A program made the position numbers and the translations under genes. A DNA stretch of 64,000 bases, taken from the NCBI GenBank assembly GCA_020025875.1, contig JAHHRI010000004.1, positions 125 to 64,124 of the forward strand, read 5' to 3'. The stretch is from Alphaproteobacteria bacterium. GTDB lineage: Bacteria; Pseudomonadota; Alphaproteobacteria; RF32; CAG-239. Of this stretch, positions 2,803 to 64,000 are shown piece by piece (within the stretch, counting starts at the first letter, position 1; each line of letters opens with the position of its first letter). The notes beneath the pieces were generated by a model that saw only the letters and a program-made list of their open reading frames with translations, was not told the origin of the DNA and did no database searches.

Positions 2803-3022
2803 TGTATATATATCCTTATTTTCCGGTTAAACCTCCGCAAGCCTATCGGCTCGGTCAGCCCGAGCACCGGAGCGAATGCCCTTGAAAATAAAAAAACAAG
2901 GTGCTTCCGCCGCGCTTGCGTGTGAATTGTTAAAACAACGAATATCAAGCATTTGATATTCGCTGTCTTTTTTACACATATTTTACTTGTTTTGCAAGCA
3001 AAAAAATGAGATCGGAAAAAGA

Positions 3023-33214: not shown

Positions 33215-34225
33215 GTGATTCAAAAGAATTGGCAAGAACTTATTAAACCGACTAATCTTGAAATTGTTCCCAGCGATGGCGGCAACAAGGCTAAGATTGT
33301 GGTTGAACCTTTGGAGAGAGGATTTGGTCTTACTCTCGGCAACGCGTTAAGACGCATTTTACTCTCTTCTTTGCAGGGTGGCGCCGTAACGGCAATTAAA
33401 ATCGACGGTGTCTTACATGAATTTTCGGTTATCCCCGGTGTAAGAGAAGATGTTACGGATATTGTCTTAAACATCAAAGGGTTGGCCGTTGCCGTTCACA
33501 ACGAGGGTATGAAAACCATGTATCTGAAGGCCGAAGGGCCGTGCGAAGTGACGGCAGCAATGATTGAGACAGGACATGACGTTGAAATCAAAAATCCTGA
33601 TCTTTTTATTTGCACGCTTGATGCCGGCGCCAAACTCAACATGGAACTGACTGTCAATACAGGCAAAGGCTATGTTCCGGCAAGCCAAAACAAGCCGGTG
33701 GATGCACCGATCGGGTTGATTGCCGTTGATGCTATCTATTCGCCGGTTAAGCGCGTTTCGTACCGTGTTGATCGTACTCGTGTCGGTCAAGTTACCGATT
33801 ATGATAAATTGACATTGGTGGTTGAAACAAACGGCGTTGTTACACCGGAAGATGCGGTTGCTTTCTCGGCTCGCATTCTGCAAGATCAGTTGAAACCGTT
33901 TATTAATTTCGATGAACCGGAAAATGAAGCAGAAGTTGAAAAAGAAGAACTGCCGTTTAACAAGAATTTGTTGAAAAAGGTTGAAGAACTTGAACTTTCC
34001 GTTCGCTCCGCCAACTGCTTGAAGAACGATAACATCGTTTATATCGGTGATTTGGTGCAGAAGACAGAAGCTGAAATGCTGAGAACGCCGAACTTCGGGC
34101 GCAAGTCTTTGAACGAGATCAAAGAAGTTTTAGCCAAAATGGGTATTCATCTGGGTATGGAAACTCCAGGATGGCCGCCGGAAAATATTGAAGAATTGAT
34201 CAAACGGGTTGATGATCACTTTTAA
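33215..34225 (+). CDS. rpoA: DNA-directed RNA polymerase subunit alpha
   Basis: 336 aa with GTG start, beginning [12 protein letters not shown]... Contains ..[11 protein letters not shown].. and the C-terminal domain ..[19 protein letters not shown]... Confidence 0.96.
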
Positions 34226-34243
34226 TCTTGGATATGATTAAGC

Positions 34244-34279
34244 AAAAAACTCTCCTACCACGGTAGGGGAGTTTTTTTG
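34244..34279 (+). terminator. intrinsic terminator directly after rpoA
   Basis: A6-CTCTCCTACC-acg-GTAGGGGAG-T7, starting 19 nt after the rpoA stop. Confidence 0.8.
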
Positions 34280-34438
34280 TAACCGAAGAGGAATGCAAAA
34301 ACATTTGCAAAGAATGGACGGAAGCCGCCGAGGTTAGATGATAACGGGGCGTGGCGTCAGATGTATGATGATTAATTGAGGCTAAAAAAAGAATCGGCGA
34401 GCGTGATTTAAGGGGTAGGAAATAAAGGGATATTAAAT

Positions 34439-34776
34439 GCTTGCTGTGGAGGTGGTGCGGCAGGCGGTTGTGGTGCTTGTTGTCGGTAGGTGGTGCGTTA
34501 GGCGGTAGGGCGCTTGCTGTCGGTAGGTGGTGAGTTAGGCGGAAGGGCGGTTGCTGTCGGTAAGTGATGGGGCAGGCGGTAGGGTGCTTGCTGTCAGAGG
34601 TGGTGCGGCAGGCGGAAGGGCGGTTGTTGTCGGTAGGTGATGCGCTAGGCGGAAGGGCGGTTGTTGTCGGTAGGTGGTGCGCTAGGCGGAAGGGCGGTTG
34701 CTGTCGGTAAGTGATGGGGCAGGCGGAAGGGTGCTTGTTGTCGGTAGGTGGTGCGTTAGGCGGTAGGACGGTTGCT
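34439..34776. repeat. tandem array of 9 copies of a degenerate 36-37-bp unit (plus a partial unit)
   Basis: Unit is roughly GTCGGTAGGTGGTGCGYTAGGCGGWAGGGCGGTTGYT. Unit boundaries fall at 34446, 34482, 34519, 34556, 34593, 34629, 34666, 34703 and 34740. Each unit holds two copies of a 9-mer core GKCGGWAGG. The plus strand is strongly G-rich and C-poor. Confidence 0.9.
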
Positions 34777-35416
34777 TGAAACAAACAGATAAAGTTGCGA
34801 TGAGGCGTTGGGCGAATCGAGCTTGCTTGATTGCGTATCCTGCTTTTGGTATCTCCCGATGATGCTTGTCGGTGGCGAAAACGGGCGTTTCCCAACACAT
34901 CAAGTAAGTATCTTTTTGGCGGCGGTATCGGAGCGTGTCTTTTTCGAGATGGCGGTCATATCGAAAGGTTTTGGATATTGTTCGTCATGCTTCAAAGAGG
35001 CCGTCAAAATCTAATAAATTGTTTTTTGATTTAAAAATTCTCTTTTGACGAATTTTTGTATTAATTATGTGTCAGTACGGCGGCAATCATGGCATTTATC
35101 CTTGTTTTTTAGCAGAAATGTAGTAGATTGTAAAAAAGTCCGATCACAAACTTTGTGTCATTTTTCGGCAAAATGCGAAAAAGCGGTTTGGCGGTGAGTT
35201 GAAAACAGTATGTGTTTCGGAAAAGCTGATAAAACAAGGCTGGATTTTGATAATCTTTTCTATAAAACGCGCCAAGACGATATGGCTTTTTTGTATTCTT
35301 ATATCGTTGAAAAAGCGTGTTTTTGGCACTGCGCGGATGGTGATGTCAGTGGGGTGGCAAATGTTATGTGAACTGATTTTTTTACAGCCGCAACGAAAGA
35401 AAGGAAAAGGGTGTCA

Positions 35417-36454
35417 ATGGTTGAAGATTGGCAAAAACTGAATGCTTGCCGCTTGGGCTTGGTGTCTTCTTTTTTGTGGCACTACAAAGCTGTCGGCTAT
35501 CATGAAGCCCCACCGTTGCCGGTTACTTCCAAACAAGACGAAAGCGTGATTTTTGTCGGTGCGGCGATTTCGGCATTAAAAAAGGATTACATTTATCCGC
35601 AGGCCATTCCGAGCGGCGGGTTGGTCATAGCTCAGGACGCCATCCGCACGCGTAACATCAAAAATATGCTTGCCGATGACTTTCAGCCCAAATGGGGATC
35701 CTATTTTACCAATATCGACACGGTGTTTCCCTACGAACACAAGAACGAAGCCTTTGCTCAGGCCTTAGCTTTTTTTACGGACAAAGTAAAACTCGCGCCT
35801 GAGGATTTGTTGTTGCGTGTTCGTTCAAAAGACGAAGAATTGTATCAATTAGTGCAAGCAAGCCGTTGGCCGACGGTGGAGGTTGATGCTCATCCGGAAA
35901 AATACTACCGTCATACGGTTGGTATTGACGATGTTTACGGAGAAAATTTTAATTTTGCCGTGCGCCATAAACACACCGGCGAATATTGCGATGTCGGCAA
36001 CTTTATCGTGTTCCGCGATTGCGGAAGCCGACAGCCGCTGTTTATGGAAGTCGGTTTCGGAGATACGGTGATTATGCAGGCCAAATATGGGTTGCCTCAT
36101 GTTACGGATTGTTATCCGTTTCCCAAACATCCGGCGCTGGATCAAAACCATAAGTTCAAAGACTGCATTATAACCTCGCAAGCGATGATGCGCGAGGGGC
36201 TTATGCCGTCCAGCCGCGATGAACAGTGTAAAATTCTTTACAAATATCTACGCAGTATTTATTATTTTGCAGATCAGGCAAGATTGAAGCCGCAGGAGCT
36301 TTCAAAACTGTTGCATCATTCCGAGGCGATGATTTTCGGCAATGTGCGGGCAGCACCGGTCATGACGGAGCTGTTTGCCGCAAAAAGCGGGAGAATGGAA
36401 GAACTGAACAGGGTAACTTTATGGAAATTACAACAACAAAGAGAGGGAAGATGA
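35417..36454 (+). CDS. stand-alone paralog of the class II alanyl-tRNA synthetase catalytic core (no tRNA-binding, editing or C-Ala domains)
   Basis: 345 aa (GTG 35411 also possible). The by-eye alignment to the AlaRS N-terminal domain is collinear throughout. FLWHYKAVGYHEAPPLPVTSKQDESVIFVGAAISALKK matches FLDFFHSKGH..V.SSSLVP.NDPTLLFTNAGMNQFK. IAQDAIRT matches SQRCVRA. WGSYFTNIDTVFPYEHKNEAFAQALAFFTDKVKLAPEDLLLRV matches HHTFFEMLGNFSFGDYFK.DAI.FAWELLT....LPKERLWVTV. VGNFIVF matches IWNIVFMQ. FMEVGFGDTVIMQAKYGLPHVTDCYPF matches SVDTGMGLERIAAVLQ.V.SNYDIDLF. CIITSQAMMREGLMPSSRDEQCKILYKYLRSI matches IADHIR...FLI.DGV.PSNE.RGYVLRRIIRRA. Confidence 0.7.
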   Translation: MVEDWQKLNACRLGLVSSFLWHYKAVGYHEAPPLPVTSKQDESVIFVGAAISALKKDYIYPQAIPSGGLVIAQDAIRTRNIKNMLADDFQPKWGSYFTNIDTVFPYEHKNEAFAQALAFFTDKVKLAPEDLLLRVRSKDEELYQLVQASRWPTVEVDAHPEKYYRHTVGIDDVYGENFNFAVRHKHTGEYCDVGNFIVFRDCGSRQPLFMEVGFGDTVIMQAKYGLPHVTDCYPFPKHPALDQNHKFKDCIITSQAMMREGLMPSSRDEQCKILYKYLRSIYYFADQARLKPQELSKLLHHSEAMIFGNVRAAPVMTELFAAKSGRMEELNRVTLWKLQQQREGR

Positions 36455-37416
36455 TAGCAAAAAAATTAAAGAAAGGCTCGCATGTGCGAGTTATTGCACC
36501 TGCACGCAGCTTGGGGATTGTGAGTGAAAATTGTCGGAAAATTGCCGATAAGCGGCTTGCAGAGATGGGCTTGCGGGTTTCGTTCGGGCGGCATGCGGAA
36601 GAAATGGACGGGGTTGCTTCTTCTTCCGTTGCGTCCCGATTGGAAGATTTGCATGAAGCTTTTGCCGATAAAACGGTTGACGGCATTCTGACGGTTATCG
36701 GCGGGTTTAATTCGATTGAACTTCTTTCCGGAATAGATTATCGGTTGATCGCCGATAACCCAAAGATTTTGTGCGGCTTTTCCGATATTACCGGACTGGC
36801 CAACGCCATTTATGCCAAAACGGGGTTGGTGACTTATTCGGGGCCGCATTACTCTACTTTCGGTATGCTGAAAGGAAACGAATATACGCTTGAATATTTT
36901 AAAAAATGCCTGTTTCAGAGCGAGTCCTTTGAGTTGCATCCGGCAGCCGAGTGGTCGGATGATCCATGGTATCTGGATCAGGAAAACCGCAAATTTATAA
37001 AAAATGACGGCTACTGGGAAATAGCTTCCGGTGCCGCGGAAGGTCGGTTGGTCGGCGGCAATTTGGGGCTTTTGGACGAGTTGAAAGGAACGCCTTATTT
37101 TCCGGACATCAAAGACAGTATTTTGTTTTTGGAACATTGTGCGGAAAATGAAGTTTGGACTTTTAACCGCAATCTGCAGGCACTCTGCCTGCATCCGGAT
37201 TTTGCTTCGGTTAGGGCGATTGTGTTCGGACGTTTTGAGCCGGAAAACCAAATTGATCGGTCGAAGTTGGAGCAGATATTGAGCACAAAGAAAGAATTGG
37301 TCGGAAAACCGATTATTGCCAATGTCGATTTTGGGCATACAACACCGATCATTACCTTTCCTATCGGCGGCAGCTGCCGAATCGATAACGGGCGGATTGA
37401 ACTGACGGCATTTTAG
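36451..37416 (+). CDS. peptidase S66 family serine hydrolase (LD-carboxypeptidase LdcA / microcin C7 immunity MccF-like)
   Basis: 321 aa. Its ATG overlaps the upstream stop as ATGA. Nucleophile elbow ..ILCGFSDITGL.., acidic ..ILFLEHC.., and His in ..NVDFGHTTP.. occur in the Ser-Glu-His order of S66 enzymes. N-terminal ..VRVIAPA... Confidence 0.8.
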   Translation: MIAKKLKKGSHVRVIAPARSLGIVSENCRKIADKRLAEMGLRVSFGRHAEEMDGVASSSVASRLEDLHEAFADKTVDGILTVIGGFNSIELLSGIDYRLIADNPKILCGFSDITGLANAIYAKTGLVTYSGPHYSTFGMLKGNEYTLEYFKKCLFQSESFELHPAAEWSDDPWYLDQENRKFIKNDGYWEIASGAAEGRLVGGNLGLLDELKGTPYFPDIKDSILFLEHCAENEVWTFNRNLQALCLHPDFASVRAIVFGRFEPENQIDRSKLEQILSTKKELVGKPIIANVDFGHTTPIITFPIGGSCRIDNGRIELTAF

Positions 37417-37423
37417 GGCGCAA

Positions 37424-37933
37424 ATGATTCTGACTGGTTCGGAAATTAAGAAATATGTTCTTAACGGCGATATCGTTATTGAGCCGTTTTGCGAAGATCA
37501 GCTCAATCCCAACAGCTACAACTATCGGTTGGGAAAAACCCTGACGTTTAAGGAAGATGACGGAAAGTACCACACGCTTAAAATTCCCGATGAAGGCTTG
37601 ATTCTTTATCCTAATCGGGTGTATTTGGGACATACGTTTGAAACGTTGGGCAGCAGCAAATGTGCCATGTCGCTGATTGGGCGCAGTTCGACCGGACGGC
37701 TGGGGCTGTTTTTGCAGGTTTCCGCCGATCTCGGTCATACCGGTTCCGTTCATAAATGGACTCTGGAACTGGTCACGGCTAAGCCTTTTCGGGTTTATCC
37801 GGAGATGATTATCGGGCAGATTTCATTCTGGCTCAATGATGGTGATGCCTCTTTGTACAAGGGAGGATACTCGGCCTATTCCTGCCCGCAAATATCGAAA
37901 ATGGAGAAAGAAATTGATACTGACGGGAAATAA
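37424..37933 (+). CDS. dCTP deaminase-fold protein, paralog 1 (catalytic Glu retained)
   Basis: 169 aa. Starts MILTGSEIKKYV..G.IVIEPF....LNPNSY..RLG, with GRSSTGRLGLF (compare Dcd GRSSLARLGL) and WTLELV, where Glu aligns with the Dcd catalytic Glu of ..IVLEF... The C-terminal tail diverges from Dcd. Confidence 0.8.
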   Translation: MILTGSEIKKYVLNGDIVIEPFCEDQLNPNSYNYRLGKTLTFKEDDGKYHTLKIPDEGLILYPNRVYLGHTFETLGSSKCAMSLIGRSSTGRLGLFLQVSADLGHTGSVHKWTLELVTAKPFRVYPEMIIGQISFWLNDGDASLYKGGYSAYSCPQISKMEKEIDTDGK

Positions 37934-38432
37934 AATTGCCGAAGAAGTTTTGAACGGAAAAATTGTGATTGAGCCGTTTGAGCTTTCCGGCATAACGACA
38001 AATTCTTATGATCTGACCTTGGGCAACAAGCTGTTGATGTATAATGACGAGGTGCTGGATCCTAAAAAAGAGCCGCAAACAACCATGTTTGAAATTCCCG
38101 ACTCCGGATATGAAATGAAACGCGGAGAATTTTTGCTCGGGTGCAGCAATGAATTTGTCGGCAGCGACTTTTATGTGCCGATTGTTCATGCCAAATCAAG
38201 CATTGCCAGACTGGGGCTGTTTATTCACATTACCTCCGGCTTGTTTGACATCGGTTGCAAATGCAATGTCACTTTTCATCTGTATGCAACAATGCCGATC
38301 AGGTTATACAAAAATATGCCGATTGCGCAAATAACATTTTGGAAAACCACGGGCGAAATAAAACACTACCACGGCAAATATCAGAATGATACAGGTCCCG
38401 TGGCTTCGCGCATTTGCAAAGATTTCAAATAA
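37914..38432 (+). CDS. dCTP deaminase-fold protein, paralog 2 (His replaces the catalytic Glu)
   Basis: 172 aa from in-frame TTG 37914, preceded by GGAGAAAG. This gives (M)ILTGNKIAEEVLNGKIVIEPF, parallel to paralog 1, and overlaps paralog 1 by 20 nt. It has AKSSIARLGLF and VTFHLY at the ..LE.. position, and a Dcd-like C-terminus KYQNDTGPVASRICKD. The track's start at 37836 adds an implausible extension. Confidence 0.72.
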   Translation: MILTGNKIAEEVLNGKIVIEPFELSGITTNSYDLTLGNKLLMYNDEVLDPKKEPQTTMFEIPDSGYEMKRGEFLLGCSNEFVGSDFYVPIVHAKSSIARLGLFIHITSGLFDIGCKCNVTFHLYATMPIRLYKNMPIAQITFWKTTGEIKHYHGKYQNDTGPVASRICKDFK

Positions 38433-38435
38433 AGA

Positions 38436-38873
38436 TTATTTTTCCAGTACGAAAGTGACCGGTCCGTCGTTGATCAGTTCCACCGCCATGTCGGCTTGAA
38501 AAATACCGTTTTCCACATTAAGCCCTTCGGCTTGCAGACATTCGGAAAAATATTCGTAGAGCGGTTTTGCCGTTTCCGGTCCGGCGGCATGGTCAAAACC
38601 GGGGCGGTTGCCGCGAGATGTGTCGCCTGCCAGCGTAAATTGGGAAACAACCAGCGCGCTGCCGCCCACATCTTTGAGCGAAAGATTCATTTTGCCGTTC
38701 CCGTCTTCAAAGATGCGCAATGCCGCCGTCTTTTTTGCAAGAGCCGCCGCTTGTTCTTTGCCGTCATTTTTGAAAACACCGATAAAGATGAGTAAACCGA
38801 CGCCGATTGCCGATACACTCCGATCGTTAACCGAAACCGAAGCTCTTTTGACACGCTGAATAAGAAGCTTCAT
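38436..38873 (-). CDS. dtd: D-aminoacyl-tRNA deacylase
   Basis: 145 aa from ATG 38873 (GGAGG RBS). Starts MKLLIQRV..A.V.V, with ..VSQFTL.. and ..NDGPVTF... Its stop lies only 3 nt from the stop of Dcd-like paralog 2 (convergent). Confidence 0.92.
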   Translation of the reverse strand: MKLLIQRVKRASVSVNDRSVSAIGVGLLIFIGVFKNDGKEQAAALAKKTAALRIFEDGNGKMNLSLKDVGGSALVVSQFTLAGDTSRGNRPGFDHAAGPETAKPLYEYFSECLQAEGLNVENGIFQADMAVELINDGPVTFVLEK

Positions 38874-38977
38874 TTTTATCCTCCAAAGTTTTTTTATGAT
38901 AAAGGGTAGCGTTGAGAAAGCCGGAATGCAAGCTTTATTTTGTGGTTTTTGGTGTTCAATATGCAAATAAAAAAGGC

Positions 38978-39006
38978 TTGCCAAAAAGAAAAATCTTCTG
39001 TATATT
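38978..39006 (+). promoter_or_regulatory. near-consensus sigma70 promoter dedicated to rplQ
   Basis: TTGCCA (38978-38983), 17-nt spacer, TATATT (39001-39006). Lies about 120 nt upstream of the rplQ ATG. Confidence 0.55.
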
Positions 39007-39126
39007 GCGCCTGAAATCGTGAGTTTGAAATTCGCGGAATGCCGGCATTTATGAAGGTAGTGACGGCTTTTTATGTTTTATCCGCTTTGCCTGTCAAAGC
39101 ATTTAGAGAAAAGAAAGGAAACAGCC

Positions 39127-39633
39127 ATGAGACATGGTGATAAACACAGAAAATTTAACATGCCGAGAAGCCAGAGAAGAGCTTTGTTCTCAAACCTGAC
39201 CAACGCGTTGTTGACGCATGAGCAGATCACAATCACTTTGCCGCGCGCCAAAGAACTGAGAACTTTTGCCGACAGCATGATCACGTTTGCCAAAAAAGGC
39301 GATCTGAACAGTCGTCGTATGGCGTTGGCCTTTTTGCGTGACAACGAAGTTGTTGCCAAATTGTTCTCTACTTTAGCCGAACGTTATAAAGAACGTAACG
39401 GTGGTTATACGCGTGTTCTTAAAGCCGGCATTCGCTATGGCGATGCTGCTCCGATGGCGATTATCGAACTGGTTGACCGTGATGTTAATGCCAAAGGTGC
39501 CAAAGATTTGGCACGAGTAGCCGCCGAGAAGGCCGCTGCCGAAGCTGCTGAAAAAGCGGTTGAGGAAGAAGCTAAAAAAGAAGAAGCCAAAGTAGAAAAA
39601 AAGGCTGAAAAAAAATCGAAAAAAGCCGAATAA
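39127..39633 (+). CDS. rplQ: 50S ribosomal protein L17 with Ala/Glu/Lys-rich C-terminal tail
   Basis: Starts [23 protein letters not shown]...L..HE.I.T at ATG 39127 (AAGGAA RBS). The tail is ..[37 protein letters not shown]. Confidence 0.95.
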
Positions 39634-63443: not shown

Positions 63444-64000
63444 AACTACCGGCTAGGCCGGTAGTTCCAAAGAGCTTACAGCTTTGCACATAAAAAACTC
63501 CTTTGCTAAATTAAGTTAGACGGTCTGGCAAAAGTCTAACAAAAGCAAAGGAGTTTTTTATGAACACACATACAATAGCACATACGACATGGAATTGTAA
63601 ATACCATGTCGTTTTCGCCCCGAAATATAGGAGAAAGGCCTTTTATGGAGGGCTTCGCCTAGAAATAGGTCAAATTTTAAGAGAATTGTGTCGATGGAAA
63701 GGAATAAGTATAATAGAAGCAGAGGTCTGCCCCGACCATATCCATATGTTAATAGAGATACCGCCGAAATTTTCGGTAAGTTCGGTTATGGGTTATCTCA
63801 AAGGTAAAAGTAGTCTGGCAATATATGAAAGGTGGGGAAATGCAAAATTCCGATATCGCAACAGGGAATTTTGGTGTCGAGGGTATTATGTGGATACCAC
63901 CGGAAAGAATACCCAAAAAATTACCGAGTATATAAGGAAACAACTTAAGGAAGATGCGGAGCAAAGTCAATTAACAATGGATTTAGACCTGTTTACGGGT
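63444..64000 (+). mobile_element. IS200/IS605-family insertion sequence, left end and tnpA (right end beyond the window)
   Basis: Perfect subterminal hairpin AACTACCGGC-TAG-GCCGGTAGTT (63444-63466). A second long stem AAAAAACTCCTTTGCT/AGCAAAGGAGTTTTTT (63492-63559) sequesters the AAGGAG RBS. The Y1 HUH transposase ORF follows. Confidence 0.85.
63560..64000 (+). CDS. tnpA: IS200/IS605 family Y1 (HUH) transposase TnpA, 3' end cut by the window
   Basis: My own translation from ATG 63560 gives MNTHTIAHTTWNCKYHVVFAPKYRRKAFYG..CPDHIHMLIEIPPK.SVS...GYLKGKSS......REFWCRGYYVDTTG... This shows HUH (HIH) and the catalytic Tyr region. It is missing from the ORF track because no stop occurs before the window end. 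Confidence 0.9.
   Translation, partial: MNTHTIAHTTWNCKYHVVFAPKYRRKAFYGGLRLEIGQILRELCRWKGISIIEAEVCPDHIHMLIEIPPKFSVSSVMGYLKGKSSLAIYERWGNAKFRYRNREFWCRGYYVDTTGKNTQKITEYIRKQLKEDAEQSQLTMDLDLFTG

What the first reader, a model, noticed from the sequence alone, without database searches (positions are those of the whole stretch)
35417..36454. Truncated, diverged alanyl-tRNA synthetase catalytic-domain paralog
The 345-aa ORF aligns by eye, segment after segment and in order, with the N-terminal aminoacylation domain of bacterial AlaRS (see the feature evidence). It ends about 100 aa after the motif-3 region. It therefore lacks the tRNA-recognition, editing and C-Ala domains, whereas E. coli AlaRS is about 875 aa. 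Key positions are altered. The motif-3 GMGLER becomes GFGDT, so the Arg is lost. The FSFGDYFK block becomes VFPYEHKN. The motif-2-like Arg (IRTR versus CVRAGG) and the Asn of WN(I/L)VF (GNFIVF) appear to be kept. Stand-alone catalytic-core paralogs are well known for other aaRS (HisZ, EpmA/PoxA, GluQRS, AsnA, SerRS-like amino acid:carrier-protein ligases). I am not aware of a characterised AlaRS-core paralog. The intact reading frame and the ATGA coupling to the next gene argue against a pseudogene.
Basis: partly seen in the sequence, partly recalled or inferred. Interest (0 to 1): 0.8.

Follow-up and report, generated by a model that had tools for sequence, protein, structure and literature searches.

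The report
Stand-alone AlaRS-like enzyme in MccF-linked cassette
The ORF is a real, conserved, shortened relative of alanyl-tRNA synthetase that can no longer bind ATP in the usual way and always sits next to a microcin-C-type immunity peptidase, so it most likely helps make (or handle) an amino-acid–nucleotide antibiotic rather than charging tRNA.

Summary
The ORF (35411/35417-36454) is intact and under purifying selection. Its fold and sequence profile match the AlaRS catalytic fragment. It is not a degraded alaS.

It belongs to an unannotated family, named only "hypothetical protein". The family has at least 400 clusters at 50% identity, and nearly all members are 320-400 aa.

- **Kept:** the motif-2 Arg, the WN-box Asn and the first helical part of the tRNA-recognition domain.
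- **Changed:** the motif-3 Arg is lost and the alanine-binding Asp is now Glu, across the whole family.

In all 14 lineages examined the gene lies next to an S66 peptidase of the MccF type. In 13 of 14 it also lies next to a SAM methyltransferase. A third component is either a pair of dCTP-deaminase-like genes (as here) or an AsnA-like core with a full-length ThrRS or GlyRS. Fusions to methyltransferase, GNAT, HD and receiver domains occur.

The window copy alone lacks the methyltransferase.

One characterised analogue exists: AcmF of ascamycin biosynthesis, which is tRNA-dependent.

My best reading is that the protein is the aminoacyl-transfer enzyme of a compact, mobile cassette for an aminoacyl-nucleotide-type inhibitor, with the S66 peptidase giving self-immunity. 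The product and the aminoacyl donor are inferred, not shown.

The parts
35411..36454 (+). AlaRS-like stand-alone protein ('AlaL'), 347 aa from GTG 35411 (345 aa from ATG 35417). It comprises a class II catalytic core plus the first helical subdomain of the tRNA-recognition domain.
   Evidence: ORF. Pfam and NCBIfam weak AlaRS hits. Family profile against AlaRS structures E 2.5e-21. hhalign 98.2%. Foldseek top hits are all AlaRS. dN/dS 0.07.
36451..37416 (+). S66 serine peptidase of the MccF-like type, 321 aa. Its start overlaps the AlaL stop (ATGA).
   Evidence: Pfam Peptidase_S66 and S66C. B. anthracis BA_5613 'MccF-like' 4e5s E 1e-106; MccF 3tla 4e-33; LdcA only 1e-22. Ser/His/Glu motifs GFSDIT, FGHT and LFLE are visible in the sequence. 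Adjacent to AlaL in 14/14 lineages.
37424..37933 (+). dCTP-deaminase-like protein 1 (DCD1), 169 aa, catalytic Glu retained (TLEL).
   Evidence: Pfam DCD E 8e-29. Below the TIGR02274 cut-off. PDB 4xjc alignment. Alignment of cassette orthologues.
37914..38432 (+). dCTP-deaminase-like protein 2 (DCD2), about 172 aa from TTG 37914 (MILTG). The catalytic Glu is replaced (TFHL), as in all cassette orthologues.
   Evidence: Pfam DCD E 7e-31. PDB 2qxx alignment. Orthologue alignment shows H/Q/M at the Glu position. Start inferred from homologues and DNA.
34226..35410 (.). Non-coding stretch in the slot where all 12 related species carry a SAM methyltransferase gene. It holds an rpoA terminator-like hairpin (~34243-34278), a 37-bp tandem repeat x9.2 (34439-34776), and a 64-nt piece (35094-35155) matching the region upstream of the methyltransferase in L017/L018.
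   Evidence: tblastn with four cassette methyltransferases finds nothing in the whole window. Tandem repeats. blastn. Sequence. Relatives' maps.
38436..38876 (-). dtd (D-aminoacyl-tRNA deacylase). A neighbour on the opposite strand, probably not part of the cassette.
   Evidence: Pfam Tyr_Deacylase and TIGR00256 above cut-off. Present at this position in most but not all alphaproteobacterial relatives, and absent from cassettes in other phyla.
33215..34225 (+). rpoA, left boundary of the insertion site.
   Evidence: ORF. Same flank in relatives.
39127..39633 (+). rplQ (L17), right boundary of the insertion site.
   Evidence: ORF. Same flank in relatives.

Best explanation
AlaL is the amino-acid-handling enzyme of a small, horizontally mobile gene cassette. 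The core of the cassette is AlaL, an MccF-type S66 peptidase and a SAM methyltransferase. A third part is either two dCTP-deaminase-like proteins or an AsnA-like class II core with a full-length ThrRS or GlyRS. The cassette makes an aminoacyl-nucleotide or aminoacyl-nucleoside type compound, a mimic of an aminoacyl-adenylate that inhibits an aaRS.

**Shown:**
- AlaL is a true homologue of the AlaRS catalytic fragment.
- It keeps the motif-2 Arg, the Asn of the WN box, an acidic residue at the alpha-amino site and the first tRNA-binding helices.
- It has lost the motif-3 Arg that class II enzymes need for ATP.
- Its gene neighbours are conserved across phyla.

**Inferred:**
- AlaL does not activate an amino acid with ATP.
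- By analogy with AcmF, it holds a nucleotide or nucleoside acceptor in the old AMP site and receives the aminoacyl group from an aminoacyl-tRNA.
- The methyltransferase modifies the product.
- The S66 peptidase protects the producer by cutting the aminoacyl-nucleotide amide bond.
- The DCD pair or the AsnA-like enzyme supplies or tailors the nucleotide part.

In this window the methyltransferase gene is missing. The cassette here would make an unmethylated product, depend on a gene elsewhere, or be on its way to loss.
For: **Homology and active site**
-.
- Family-wide near-invariant D41, Q73, R77, F97, D192, N195, E211, G215, D249 and Y277. There is no Arg at the motif-3 position; T/V stands at 218.
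- In the same clusters the AsnRS-like paralogue keeps its motif-3 'GLGVER', visible in the translation. The loss is therefore specific to AlaL.

**Neighbourhood**
- S66 is adjacent in 14/14 lineages and the methyltransferase in 13/14. These span gut Alphaproteobacteria, Kitasatospora, Streptomyces, Arthrobacter, Pseudonocardiaceae, Microbacteriaceae, Catabacter, a locus with the gene neighbourhood of a small-genome (CPR-like) bacterium (my reading, not tested), and unnamed metagenome contigs.
- An AlaL-methyltransferase fusion (P0080) links the two genes.

**Match to microcin-C immunity enzymes**
- The linked S66, the HIT genes (L011, L005) and a GNAT fusion (P0066) are the three enzyme classes known to detoxify microcin-C-type aminoacyl-nucleotides: MccF, MccH and MccE2 (review PMC8323819).
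- The window S66 is far closer to MccF-type structures than to LdcA.

**In-cluster full-length aaRS genes**
- ThrRS in L001, L032, L033 and L036, and two GlyRS in L035, all score above the NCBIfam cut-offs.
- Such genes are the hallmark of aaRS-inhibitor gene clusters, for example AgnB2 and AcmD.
- Exporters, a P450 and a PCP lie beside the actinobacterial copies.

**Precedent**
- AcmF is a truncated AlaRS-like enzyme without ATP-binding residues and with the same Asp-to-Glu change. It transfers Ala from Ala-tRNA to a nucleoside sulfamate.
Against: - No product, donor or acceptor is known. Nothing here tests tRNA use.
- Cassettes of the window's type (DCD pair) contain no exporter and no aaRS copy. 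Three of their five genes look like hydrolases or deaminases, which fits detoxification as well as biosynthesis.
- The family keeps the WN-box Asn, which AcmF changed to Gln. Its spacing of active-site residues differs from the AcmF numbering, and no AcmF-like numbering was found among the top 150 hits. Homology to AcmF beyond the shared AlaRS origin is therefore unproven.
- The conserved basic residues of the helical subdomain (R/K263, R/K275) are M and Y in the window protein.
- The window copy lacks the otherwise constant methyltransferase.
- Promoter-like sites are no more frequent than chance.
Confidence: 0.45

Rival explanations
1. AlaL is an ATP-dependent amino acid:amine (or carboxylate:amine) ligase. 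It forms an acyl-adenylate itself, like AsnA, EpmA or the SerRS-like amino acid:carrier-protein ligases, and passes the acyl group to a small-molecule acceptor made by the neighbouring genes.
For: - Most stand-alone class II paralogues work this way (established knowledge).
- The motif-2 Arg, the adenine-stacking Phe (F97), D192 (E. coli E209) and N195 are kept.
- The DCD-type cassettes have no linked aaRS to supply aa-tRNA.
Against: - The motif-3 Arg, which is kept by class II adenylate-forming enzymes, is missing in essentially every member. The AsnRS-like paralogue in the same clusters retains it.
- The part of the tRNA-recognition domain that is kept would be unnecessary.
- AcmF, the only characterised truncated AlaRS, is tRNA-dependent.
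Confidence: 0.17
2. The cassette is protective or catabolic rather than biosynthetic. It is a resistance or salvage island against aminoacyl-nucleotide antibiotics made by other microbes. S66, HIT, HD, NUDIX and DCD proteins degrade the compound. AlaL acts as a binding, decoy or re-routing protein and the methyltransferase as a modifying, inactivating enzyme.
For: - Accessory genes are overwhelmingly hydrolases: S66, HIT, HD, NUDIX and DCD.
- Stand-alone MccF homologues are known to confer resistance.
- The cassette occurs in a locus whose gene neighbourhood looks like that of a small-genome bacterium (the organism was not identified) and in gut bacteria exposed to microcins.
- The window keeps S66, AlaL and both DCD genes without the methyltransferase, and AlaL shows no specific relaxation of constraint.
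Against: - Conserved catalytic-type residues in AlaL and its fusion to the methyltransferase suggest a synthetic step.
- In-cluster ThrRS or GlyRS copies, exporters, a P450 and a PCP in actinomycetes look like producer clusters.
- A pure decoy would not need the aminoacyl-site residues.
Confidence: 0.2
3. The cassette manipulates the pyrimidine nucleotide pool or makes a modified nucleotide signal, for example for phage defence. The DCD pair is the effector and AlaL a sensor or regulator.
For: - Two DCD genes, one catalytically altered, are conserved with AlaL in distant lineages.
- A NUDIX gene lies in L015.
- A receiver-domain fusion (P0047) points to regulation.
- Cassettes are bracketed by tRNA genes like islands.
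Against: - No PADLOC defence model matches any of the five proteins.
- About half of the cassettes examined have no DCD genes and carry an AsnA-like gene and an aaRS instead.
- There are no hits in phage or plasmid collections.
- S66 is the constant partner, not DCD.
Confidence: 0.08
4. The ORF is a decaying fragment or split piece of the housekeeping alaS.
For: It covers only the N-terminal 40% of AlaRS, and no alaS lies in the window.
Against: - dN/dS is 0.07.
- 532 family representatives of the same 320-400 aa length have their own conserved motifs.
- The locus and partners are the same in 12 related species.
- The family occurs in Streptomyces, Kitasatospora and Arthrobacter genomes.
- Pairwise BLAST with E. 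coli AlaRS does not even detect it.
Confidence: 0.02

Closest known systems
AcmF, the AlaRS-like aminoacyl transferase of ascamycin biosynthesis (Streptomyces sp. 80H647 / JCM9888; Zheng et al., ACS Catal 2024; review PMC12945691)
   Same: - A stand-alone truncated AlaRS paralogue of similar size (370 aa against 345-347 aa).
- It has a catalytic domain plus part of the tRNA-recognition domain.
- ATP-binding residues are lost.
- The alanine-binding Asp is replaced by Glu.
- It sits in a cluster with a hydrolase that removes the aminoacyl group and, in the type-B relatives of this family, with a full-length aaRS.
   Different: - AcmF changed the WN-box Asn to Gln. This family keeps Asn in 136/141 members.
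- The spacing between active-site residues differs, and AcmF still shows 27% BLAST identity to a canonical AlaRS. This ORF is invisible to BLAST with AlaRS.
- No sulfamate-pathway genes are linked here. The partners here (S66, methyltransferase, DCD pair or AsnA-like) are not among the acm genes in the part of the table retrieved. Whether the full acm cluster lacks them was not checked.
- The linked aaRS is ThrRS or GlyRS, not AlaRS.
- Direct sequence comparison was not possible.
Canonical alanyl-tRNA synthetase catalytic fragment (E. coli AlaRS 1-461, A. aeolicus AlaRS 1-453; PDB 3hxu, 1riq)
   Same: The fold and the order of motifs match. R69, F90, E209/N212, G237/G239 and the 'ADH...PSN...GYVLRR' helices have counterparts.
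   Different: - No motif-3 Arg.
- Asp235 is Glu; Trp170 is His (H in 121 and W in 20 of 141 members).
- The protein ends near AlaRS residue ~340-370, so the second half of the tRNA-recognition domain (including the Asp400 region), the editing domain and C-Ala are absent.
- TIGR00344 scores 26 bits against a cut-off of 457.
Microcin C-type (mcc) clusters and their immunity enzymes MccF, MccE2 and MccH
   Same: - The constant partner is an S66 peptidase of the MccF type.
- HIT genes, a GNAT fusion and SAM methyltransferases also recur.
- The theme is an aminoacyl-nucleotide aaRS inhibitor.
   Different: - No MccB (ThiF-like) gene appears in any cassette examined. No precursor-peptide gene was found, although small ORFs were not searched systematically. 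One uncharacterised 49-aa ORF precedes AlaL in L033.
- The amino-acid-handling enzyme is instead an aaRS-like protein.
Other stand-alone class II aaRS-core paralogues (AsnA and archaeal AS-AR, EpmA/PoxA, HisZ, SerRS-like amino acid:carrier-protein ligases)
   Same: Each is a catalytic core without an anticodon-binding or editing module, recruited to non-translational chemistry. An AsnA-like member is itself a partner in many of these cassettes.
   Different: They derive from other class II subfamilies. Those that are catalytic keep the motif-3 Arg and use ATP (established knowledge; for the cassette AsnA-like protein).

Membership tests
Canonical AlaRS (alaS, TIGR00344 / Pfam PF01411) | Whole-protein score above the curated cut-off | tested here: not met
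   TIGR00344 scores 26.4 bits against 457. PF01411 scores 28.5 bits against 30.3.
Canonical AlaRS (alaS, TIGR00344 / Pfam PF01411) | Class II catalytic fold of the AlaRS type | tested here: met
   Foldseek top 18 hits are all AlaRS, E 8e-13, TM 0.65-0.72. Profile E 2.5e-21. hhalign 98.2%.
Canonical AlaRS (alaS, TIGR00344 / Pfam PF01411) | Motif-3 Arg (GMGLER) for ATP binding, and Asp235 for the alanine alpha-amino group | tested here: not met
   V218 (family T/V) stands at the Arg position. Glu211 stands at the Asp position in 134/141 members.
Canonical AlaRS (alaS, TIGR00344 / Pfam PF01411) | Complete tRNA-recognition domain, editing domain and C-Ala | tested here: not met
   The protein ends at 345 aa. 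The alignment reaches only AlaRS ~326-343.
AcmF-type AlaRS-like aminoacyl-tRNA-dependent transferase | Truncated AlaRS with a catalytic domain plus (part of) the tRNA-recognition domain, ~370 aa | tested here: met
   345-347 aa. Aligned to AlaRS 5-343. AcmF size.
AcmF-type AlaRS-like aminoacyl-tRNA-dependent transferase | Loss of ATP-binding residues and an Asp-to-Glu change at the alpha-amino site | tested here: met
   Motif-3 Arg absent and E211 present. AcmF features.
AcmF-type AlaRS-like aminoacyl-tRNA-dependent transferase | Asn-to-Gln change at the WN-box Asn (AcmF Q219) | tested here: not met
   N195 is kept in 136/141 members.
AcmF-type AlaRS-like aminoacyl-tRNA-dependent transferase | Direct sequence relationship to AcmF (same clade apart from canonical AlaRS) | not testable with these tools
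   The AcmF sequence was not obtainable. No protein with AcmF's residue numbering is among the top 150 family hits. No hit is named AcmF.
AcmF-type AlaRS-like aminoacyl-tRNA-dependent transferase | Aminoacyl transfer from aa-tRNA to a nucleoside amine | not testable with these tools
   This needs biochemistry.
AcmF-type AlaRS-like aminoacyl-tRNA-dependent transferase | Linked full-length aaRS that supplies aa-tRNA and resists the product | tested here: inconclusive
   Absent from the window and from all DCD-type cassettes. Present as ThrRS or GlyRS in AsnA-type cassettes.
Microcin C-like (mcc) gene cluster | MccB ThiF-like nucleotidyltransferase and a short precursor peptide gene | tested here: not met
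   No ThiF-like gene appears in the window cassette or in any of the 14 contexts. Small precursor-peptide ORFs were not searched systematically.
Microcin C-like (mcc) gene cluster | MccF-type S66 immunity peptidase | tested here: met
   The S66 partner matches MccF-type structures at E 1e-106 to 4e-33, stronger than LdcA at 1e-22. The catalytic Ser, His and Glu motifs are present. Activity was not tested.
Known anti-phage defence systems (PADLOC) | Match to any defence-system protein model | tested here: not met
   Zero hits for all five proteins.

The most novel reading that the evidence does not exclude
The AlaL / S66 / methyltransferase cassette encodes a previously unrecognised, very compact, tRNA-dependent route to aminoacyl-nucleotide inhibitors of aaRS. 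The targets would include ThrRS and GlyRS, for which no natural aminoacyl-adenylate mimic is known to me. The route would be spread by horizontal transfer from human-gut Alphaproteobacteria to Streptomycetes and, judging by one locus's gene neighbourhood, small-genome bacteria. In the version seen here, a heteromeric pair of dCTP-deaminase-like proteins (one active, one Glu-less) would build or tailor a pyrimidine nucleotide scaffold.
Probability: 0.3. Interest if true: 0.85.

Novelty: new variant of a known kind. Interest (0 to 1): 0.66.

Why it matters
- **A second lineage of truncated AlaRS.** If the reading is right, this is a second and much more widespread lineage of truncated AlaRS enzymes recruited to small-molecule chemistry. 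It would come with a recognisable 3-5 gene signature that can be mined.
- **A handle on new aaRS inhibitors.** These would include compounds made by uncultured human-gut bacteria. The in-cluster ThrRS or GlyRS copies would predict the targets.
- **An evolutionary pattern.** It would show that losing the motif-3 Arg while keeping the aminoacyl site and the first tRNA-binding helices is a repeatable route from synthetase to transferase.
- **An annotation gap.** Hundreds of proteins now called 'hypothetical', and many 'LD-carboxypeptidase' and 'dCTP deaminase' calls beside them, probably belong to one pathway.

Tried and rejected
- **Weak single-sequence and small-profile comparisons.** phmmer gave E 0.013. 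The 13-sequence profile against E. coli AlaRS gave hhalign probability 18%. Both aligned only the N-terminal ~130 aa. A 141-sequence profile was needed.
- **BLAST.** BLAST with E. coli AlaRS does not detect the ORF at all.
- **Methyltransferase remnant.** tblastn with four orthologues found nothing in the window. blastn found only a 64-nt upstream piece.
- **AcmF identification.** No protein matched AcmF's residue numbering among the hits. The two further homologue searches returned only 'hypothetical protein' names.
- **Genome-collection scan.** It was rerun with the close alignment.
- **Searches with no hits.** PADLOC, plasmids and phages, and literature searches for MccF together with aaRS-like enzymes or for 'AlaRS-like' beyond the AcmF review.
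- **Phosmidosine.** The literature gave no gene cluster to compare with.
- **Promoter and terminator scan.** Counts were at chance level.
- **Relaxed-selection test.** It showed no AlaL-specific acceleration on the window branch, so it gave no evidence for decay after the methyltransferase loss.
- **tRNA genes as functional partners.** Rejected, because their identities differ between loci. They look like island boundaries.
Full report
**1. What is at the coordinates**

An uninterrupted frame runs from 35411 (GTG) or 35417 (ATG) to 36454 on the + strand. The GTG start gives MSMVEDW..., matching the relatives' MSAVENW... and their 347-aa length. An AGGA lies 5 nt upstream.

The stop overlaps the start of the next gene in an ATGA at 36451-36454.

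The gene sits in a ~4.8-kb insert between rpoA (33215-34225) and rplQ (39127-39633). Its neighbours there are:
- an S66 peptidase (36451-37416);
- two dCTP-deaminase-like genes (37424-37933 and 37914-38432);
- dtd on the opposite strand.

**2. Is it AlaRS-like?**

The single sequence gives only borderline signals:

| Search | Result |
|---|---|
| Pfam tRNA-synt_2c | E 7e-7, 28.5 bits (cut-off 30.3), residues 17-148 only |
| TIGR00344 alaS | 26 bits (cut-off 457) |
| A. aeolicus AlaRS, phmmer | E 0.013 |
| tblastn with E. coli AlaRS | no hit on the ORF |

The family settles the question. An exhaustive profile search found 532 representatives at 50% identity with E <= 1e-3, of which 416 had E <= 1e-10. 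Nearly all are 320-400 aa.

A 141-sequence profile gave these results:
- It matches AlaRS catalytic fragments at E 2.5e-21, profile 21-327 against AlaRS 6-343.
- It aligns to E. coli AlaRS residues 5-326 with 98.2% hhalign probability.

The AlphaFold model (pLDDT 86, pTM 0.87) has AlaRS catalytic fragments as its 18 best PDB matches (E 8e-13 to 4e-10, TM 0.64-0.72). GlyRS-alpha and AsnA follow.

**3. Anatomy relative to AlaRS**

| | Window residue | E. coli AlaRS |
|---|---|---|
| Kept | R77 | R69 (motif-2 Arg) |
| Kept | F97 | adenine-stacking Phe |
| Kept | D192 / N195 | E209 / N212 |
| Kept | G213 / G215 | G237 / G239 |
| Changed | E211 | D235 (E in 134/141 members) |
| Changed | H166 | W170 (121 H, 20 W) |
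| Lost | V218 | motif-3 Arg (family consensus T) |

Residues ~245-330 align with the first helical part of the AlaRS tRNA-recognition domain: D249 with 'ADH', 'EGLxPSS' with 'DGVMPSN', and Y277 with 'GYVLRR'. The family carries conserved basic positions there (R/K263, R272, R/K275). Those at 263 and 275 are M and Y in the window protein, and 272 is K.

The rest of that domain, the editing domain and C-Ala are absent. The statement that the tRNA-recognition domain is wholly missing was not.

**4. Not a pseudogene**

- dN/dS against the closest relative is 0.067, with dS about 1.5.
- Twelve related gut alphaproteobacterial species carry the orthologue at the same site. The records call them 'uncultured Azospirillum sp.' or 'Alphaproteobacteria bacterium'.
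- A relative-rate comparison shows no AlaL-specific acceleration on the window's branch.

**5. The conserved neighbourhood**

I looked at 14 lineages in all. An S66 peptidase is adjacent in 14/14 and a class I SAM methyltransferase in 13/14. Two architectures recur.

- **Type A:** methyltransferase, AlaL, S66, DCD, DCD. It occurs in the gut Alphaproteobacteria and in three very distant members with 22-27% identity (L013, L015, L034). L015 adds a NUDIX gene.
- **Type B:** an AsnRS-core / archaeal-AsnA-like protein, AlaL, methyltransferase and S66.
  - It often carries a full-length aaRS that passes the NCBIfam cut-off. ThrRS is present in Kitasatospora, Arthrobacter sp. AG258, Streptomyces and L036. 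Two GlyRS are present in a human-gut contig, L035.
  - Pseudonocardiaceae and Microbacteriaceae contigs show ThrRS-like matches by tblastn only.
  - HIT and HD genes occur in L011 and L005.
  - Exporters, a P450 and a PCP lie beside the actinobacterial copies. A LanB-like gene lies next to the Kitasatospora cassette.

Fusion proteins join AlaL to a methyltransferase (P0080), a GNAT (P0066), an HD domain (P0102) and a receiver domain (P0047).

Every name that a source gives to a family member is 'hypothetical protein'. No member was found in the plasmid or phage collections.

Cassettes outside the Alphaproteobacteria are often bracketed by tRNA genes of varying identity, as islands are.

**6. 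The partners**

- **S66.** It is about 60% identical to B. anthracis BA_5613 ('MccF-like', E 1e-106) and to Lmo1638. It matches MccF (4e-33) better than LdcA (1e-22). The Ser, His and Glu motifs are intact.
- **DCD1.** It keeps the deaminase Glu (TLEL).
- **DCD2.** Every cassette orthologue has H, Q or M at that position. The pair therefore looks like one active and one non-deaminating subunit.
- **Methyltransferase.** It has only weak matches, several of them to N-methyltransferases such as CcbJ and the daptide methyltransferase.
- **AsnA-like protein.** It keeps its motif-3 'GLGVER'. The loss of the Arg in AlaL is therefore specific.

**7. The window copy is atypical**

All 12 relatives have the methyltransferase immediately upstream of AlaL and translationally coupled to it. 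The window has none, and tblastn with four orthologues finds nothing in 64 kb. The slot holds:
- an rpoA terminator-like hairpin;
- a 37-bp tandem repeat x9.2 at 34439-34776;
- ~640 bp of non-coding DNA, including a 64-nt piece matching the region upstream of the methyltransferase in L017/L018.

**8. What is known**

One exists: AcmF of ascamycin biosynthesis.
- It is 370 aa.
- It lacks the ATP-binding residues and carries D232E and N219Q.
- It uses Ala-tRNA, made by the in-cluster AlaRS AcmD, to N-alanylate the sulfamate of dealanylascamycin.
- AcmD also resists the product, and AcmE removes the alanyl group.

The microcin C literature defines three immunity enzymes for aminoacyl-nucleotides: the S66 peptidase MccF, the GNAT MccE2 and the HIT protein MccH. 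It also notes resistant aaRS copies in producer clusters.

All three enzyme classes, and in-cluster aaRS genes, recur around AlaL. No MccB-like gene does.

**9. Interpretation**

The combination points to an aminoacyl-nucleotide or aminoacyl-nucleoside compound. The elements are an aminoacyl-binding class II site without ATP capacity, retained acceptor-stem helices, an MccF-type peptidase as the constant partner, HIT and GNAT genes as occasional partners, and ThrRS or GlyRS copies.

In this reading AlaL installs the aminoacyl group. Most likely it takes it from aa-tRNA, as AcmF does.

The roles of the methyltransferase, the DCD pair and the AsnA-like enzyme are inferred only from position. One idea I could not test is that the DCD pair or the AsnA-like enzyme, both of which handle ammonia, generates an amino- or amido-bearing nucleotide acceptor.

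The main rival is that the cassette is protective or catabolic. The rival fits type A (the window's type) better than type B. I put about 0.45 on the biosynthetic, tRNA-dependent reading, 0.17 on an ATP-dependent ligase, 0.20 on a resistance or salvage island, 0.08 on a nucleotide-pool or defence role, and 0.02 on a pseudogene.

**10. Novelty and score**

The kind of thing is known from one example: a truncated AlaRS-like enzyme in aminoacyl-nucleoside antibiotic biosynthesis. This family differs in several ways:
- It is far more diverged from AlaRS.
- It keeps the WN-box Asn.
- It has different and highly conserved partners.
- It spans several phyla and is unannotated.

I rate it a new variant of a known kind, with interest 0.66.

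Noticed in passing
window 34439-34776: A G-rich 37-bp tandem repeat, 9.2 copies with 82% matches (also readable as a 147-bp period). It occupies the slot where every related species has the cassette methyltransferase gene. It creates spurious low-complexity ORFs on the minus strand (34200-34898).
   Followed up: partly
window 37914-38432 (DCD2); L002, L013, L015 orthologues: The second dCTP-deaminase-like gene scores above the TIGR02274 'dCTP deaminase' cut-off, yet it has His (Gln or Met in distant orthologues) in place of the catalytic Glu. Automatic annotation as dCTP deaminase would probably be wrong.
   Followed up: partly
window 38436-38876 (-): dtd (D-aminoacyl-tRNA deacylase) lies tail-to-tail with DCD2 inside the rpoA-rplQ insert in most alphaproteobacterial relatives. 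L024-L026 have an HD-domain gene there instead. The link to the cassette is probably coincidental but was not excluded.
   Followed up: partly
L013 5702-5778 and 10219-10293; L011 10913-10987; L015 4940-5022; L005 11598-11684: tRNA genes of differing identity (Pro, Gly, Gln, Leu) directly flank the cassette in non-alphaproteobacterial loci. This suggests island-type insertion.
   Followed up: no
L001 6560-8926 (Kitasatospora); L032 12845-15662 (Arthrobacter sp. AG258): In Kitasatospora a LanB-like protein (Lant_dehydr_N plus a PqqD-like element, PEARL-type) lies next to the cassette. In Arthrobacter the cassette is followed by a P450, a carrier protein and a 363-aa class II core (weak tRNA-synt_2b match). 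The actinobacterial clusters may therefore be larger pathways rich in aaRS-like enzymes.
   Followed up: no
L035 503-9201 (human gut metagenome contig): The cluster has two full-length GlyRS genes, an AsnA-like core, AlaL, an amidohydrolase-like gene, a methyltransferase, S66 and an upstream RelA/SpoT homologue.
   Followed up: partly
window 63444-63551 (+) and 2808-2924 (-): Rfam matches above the gathering score: STnc490 Hfq-binding sRNA (62 bits) and the rpsB leader/sRNA (44 bits).
   Followed up: no
window 33215-39633 compared with L017, L019, L022, L023: The window lineage has the longer branch for every gene compared, rpoA and dtd included. Cassette proteins evolve about 10-17 times faster than rpoA.
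   Followed up: partly
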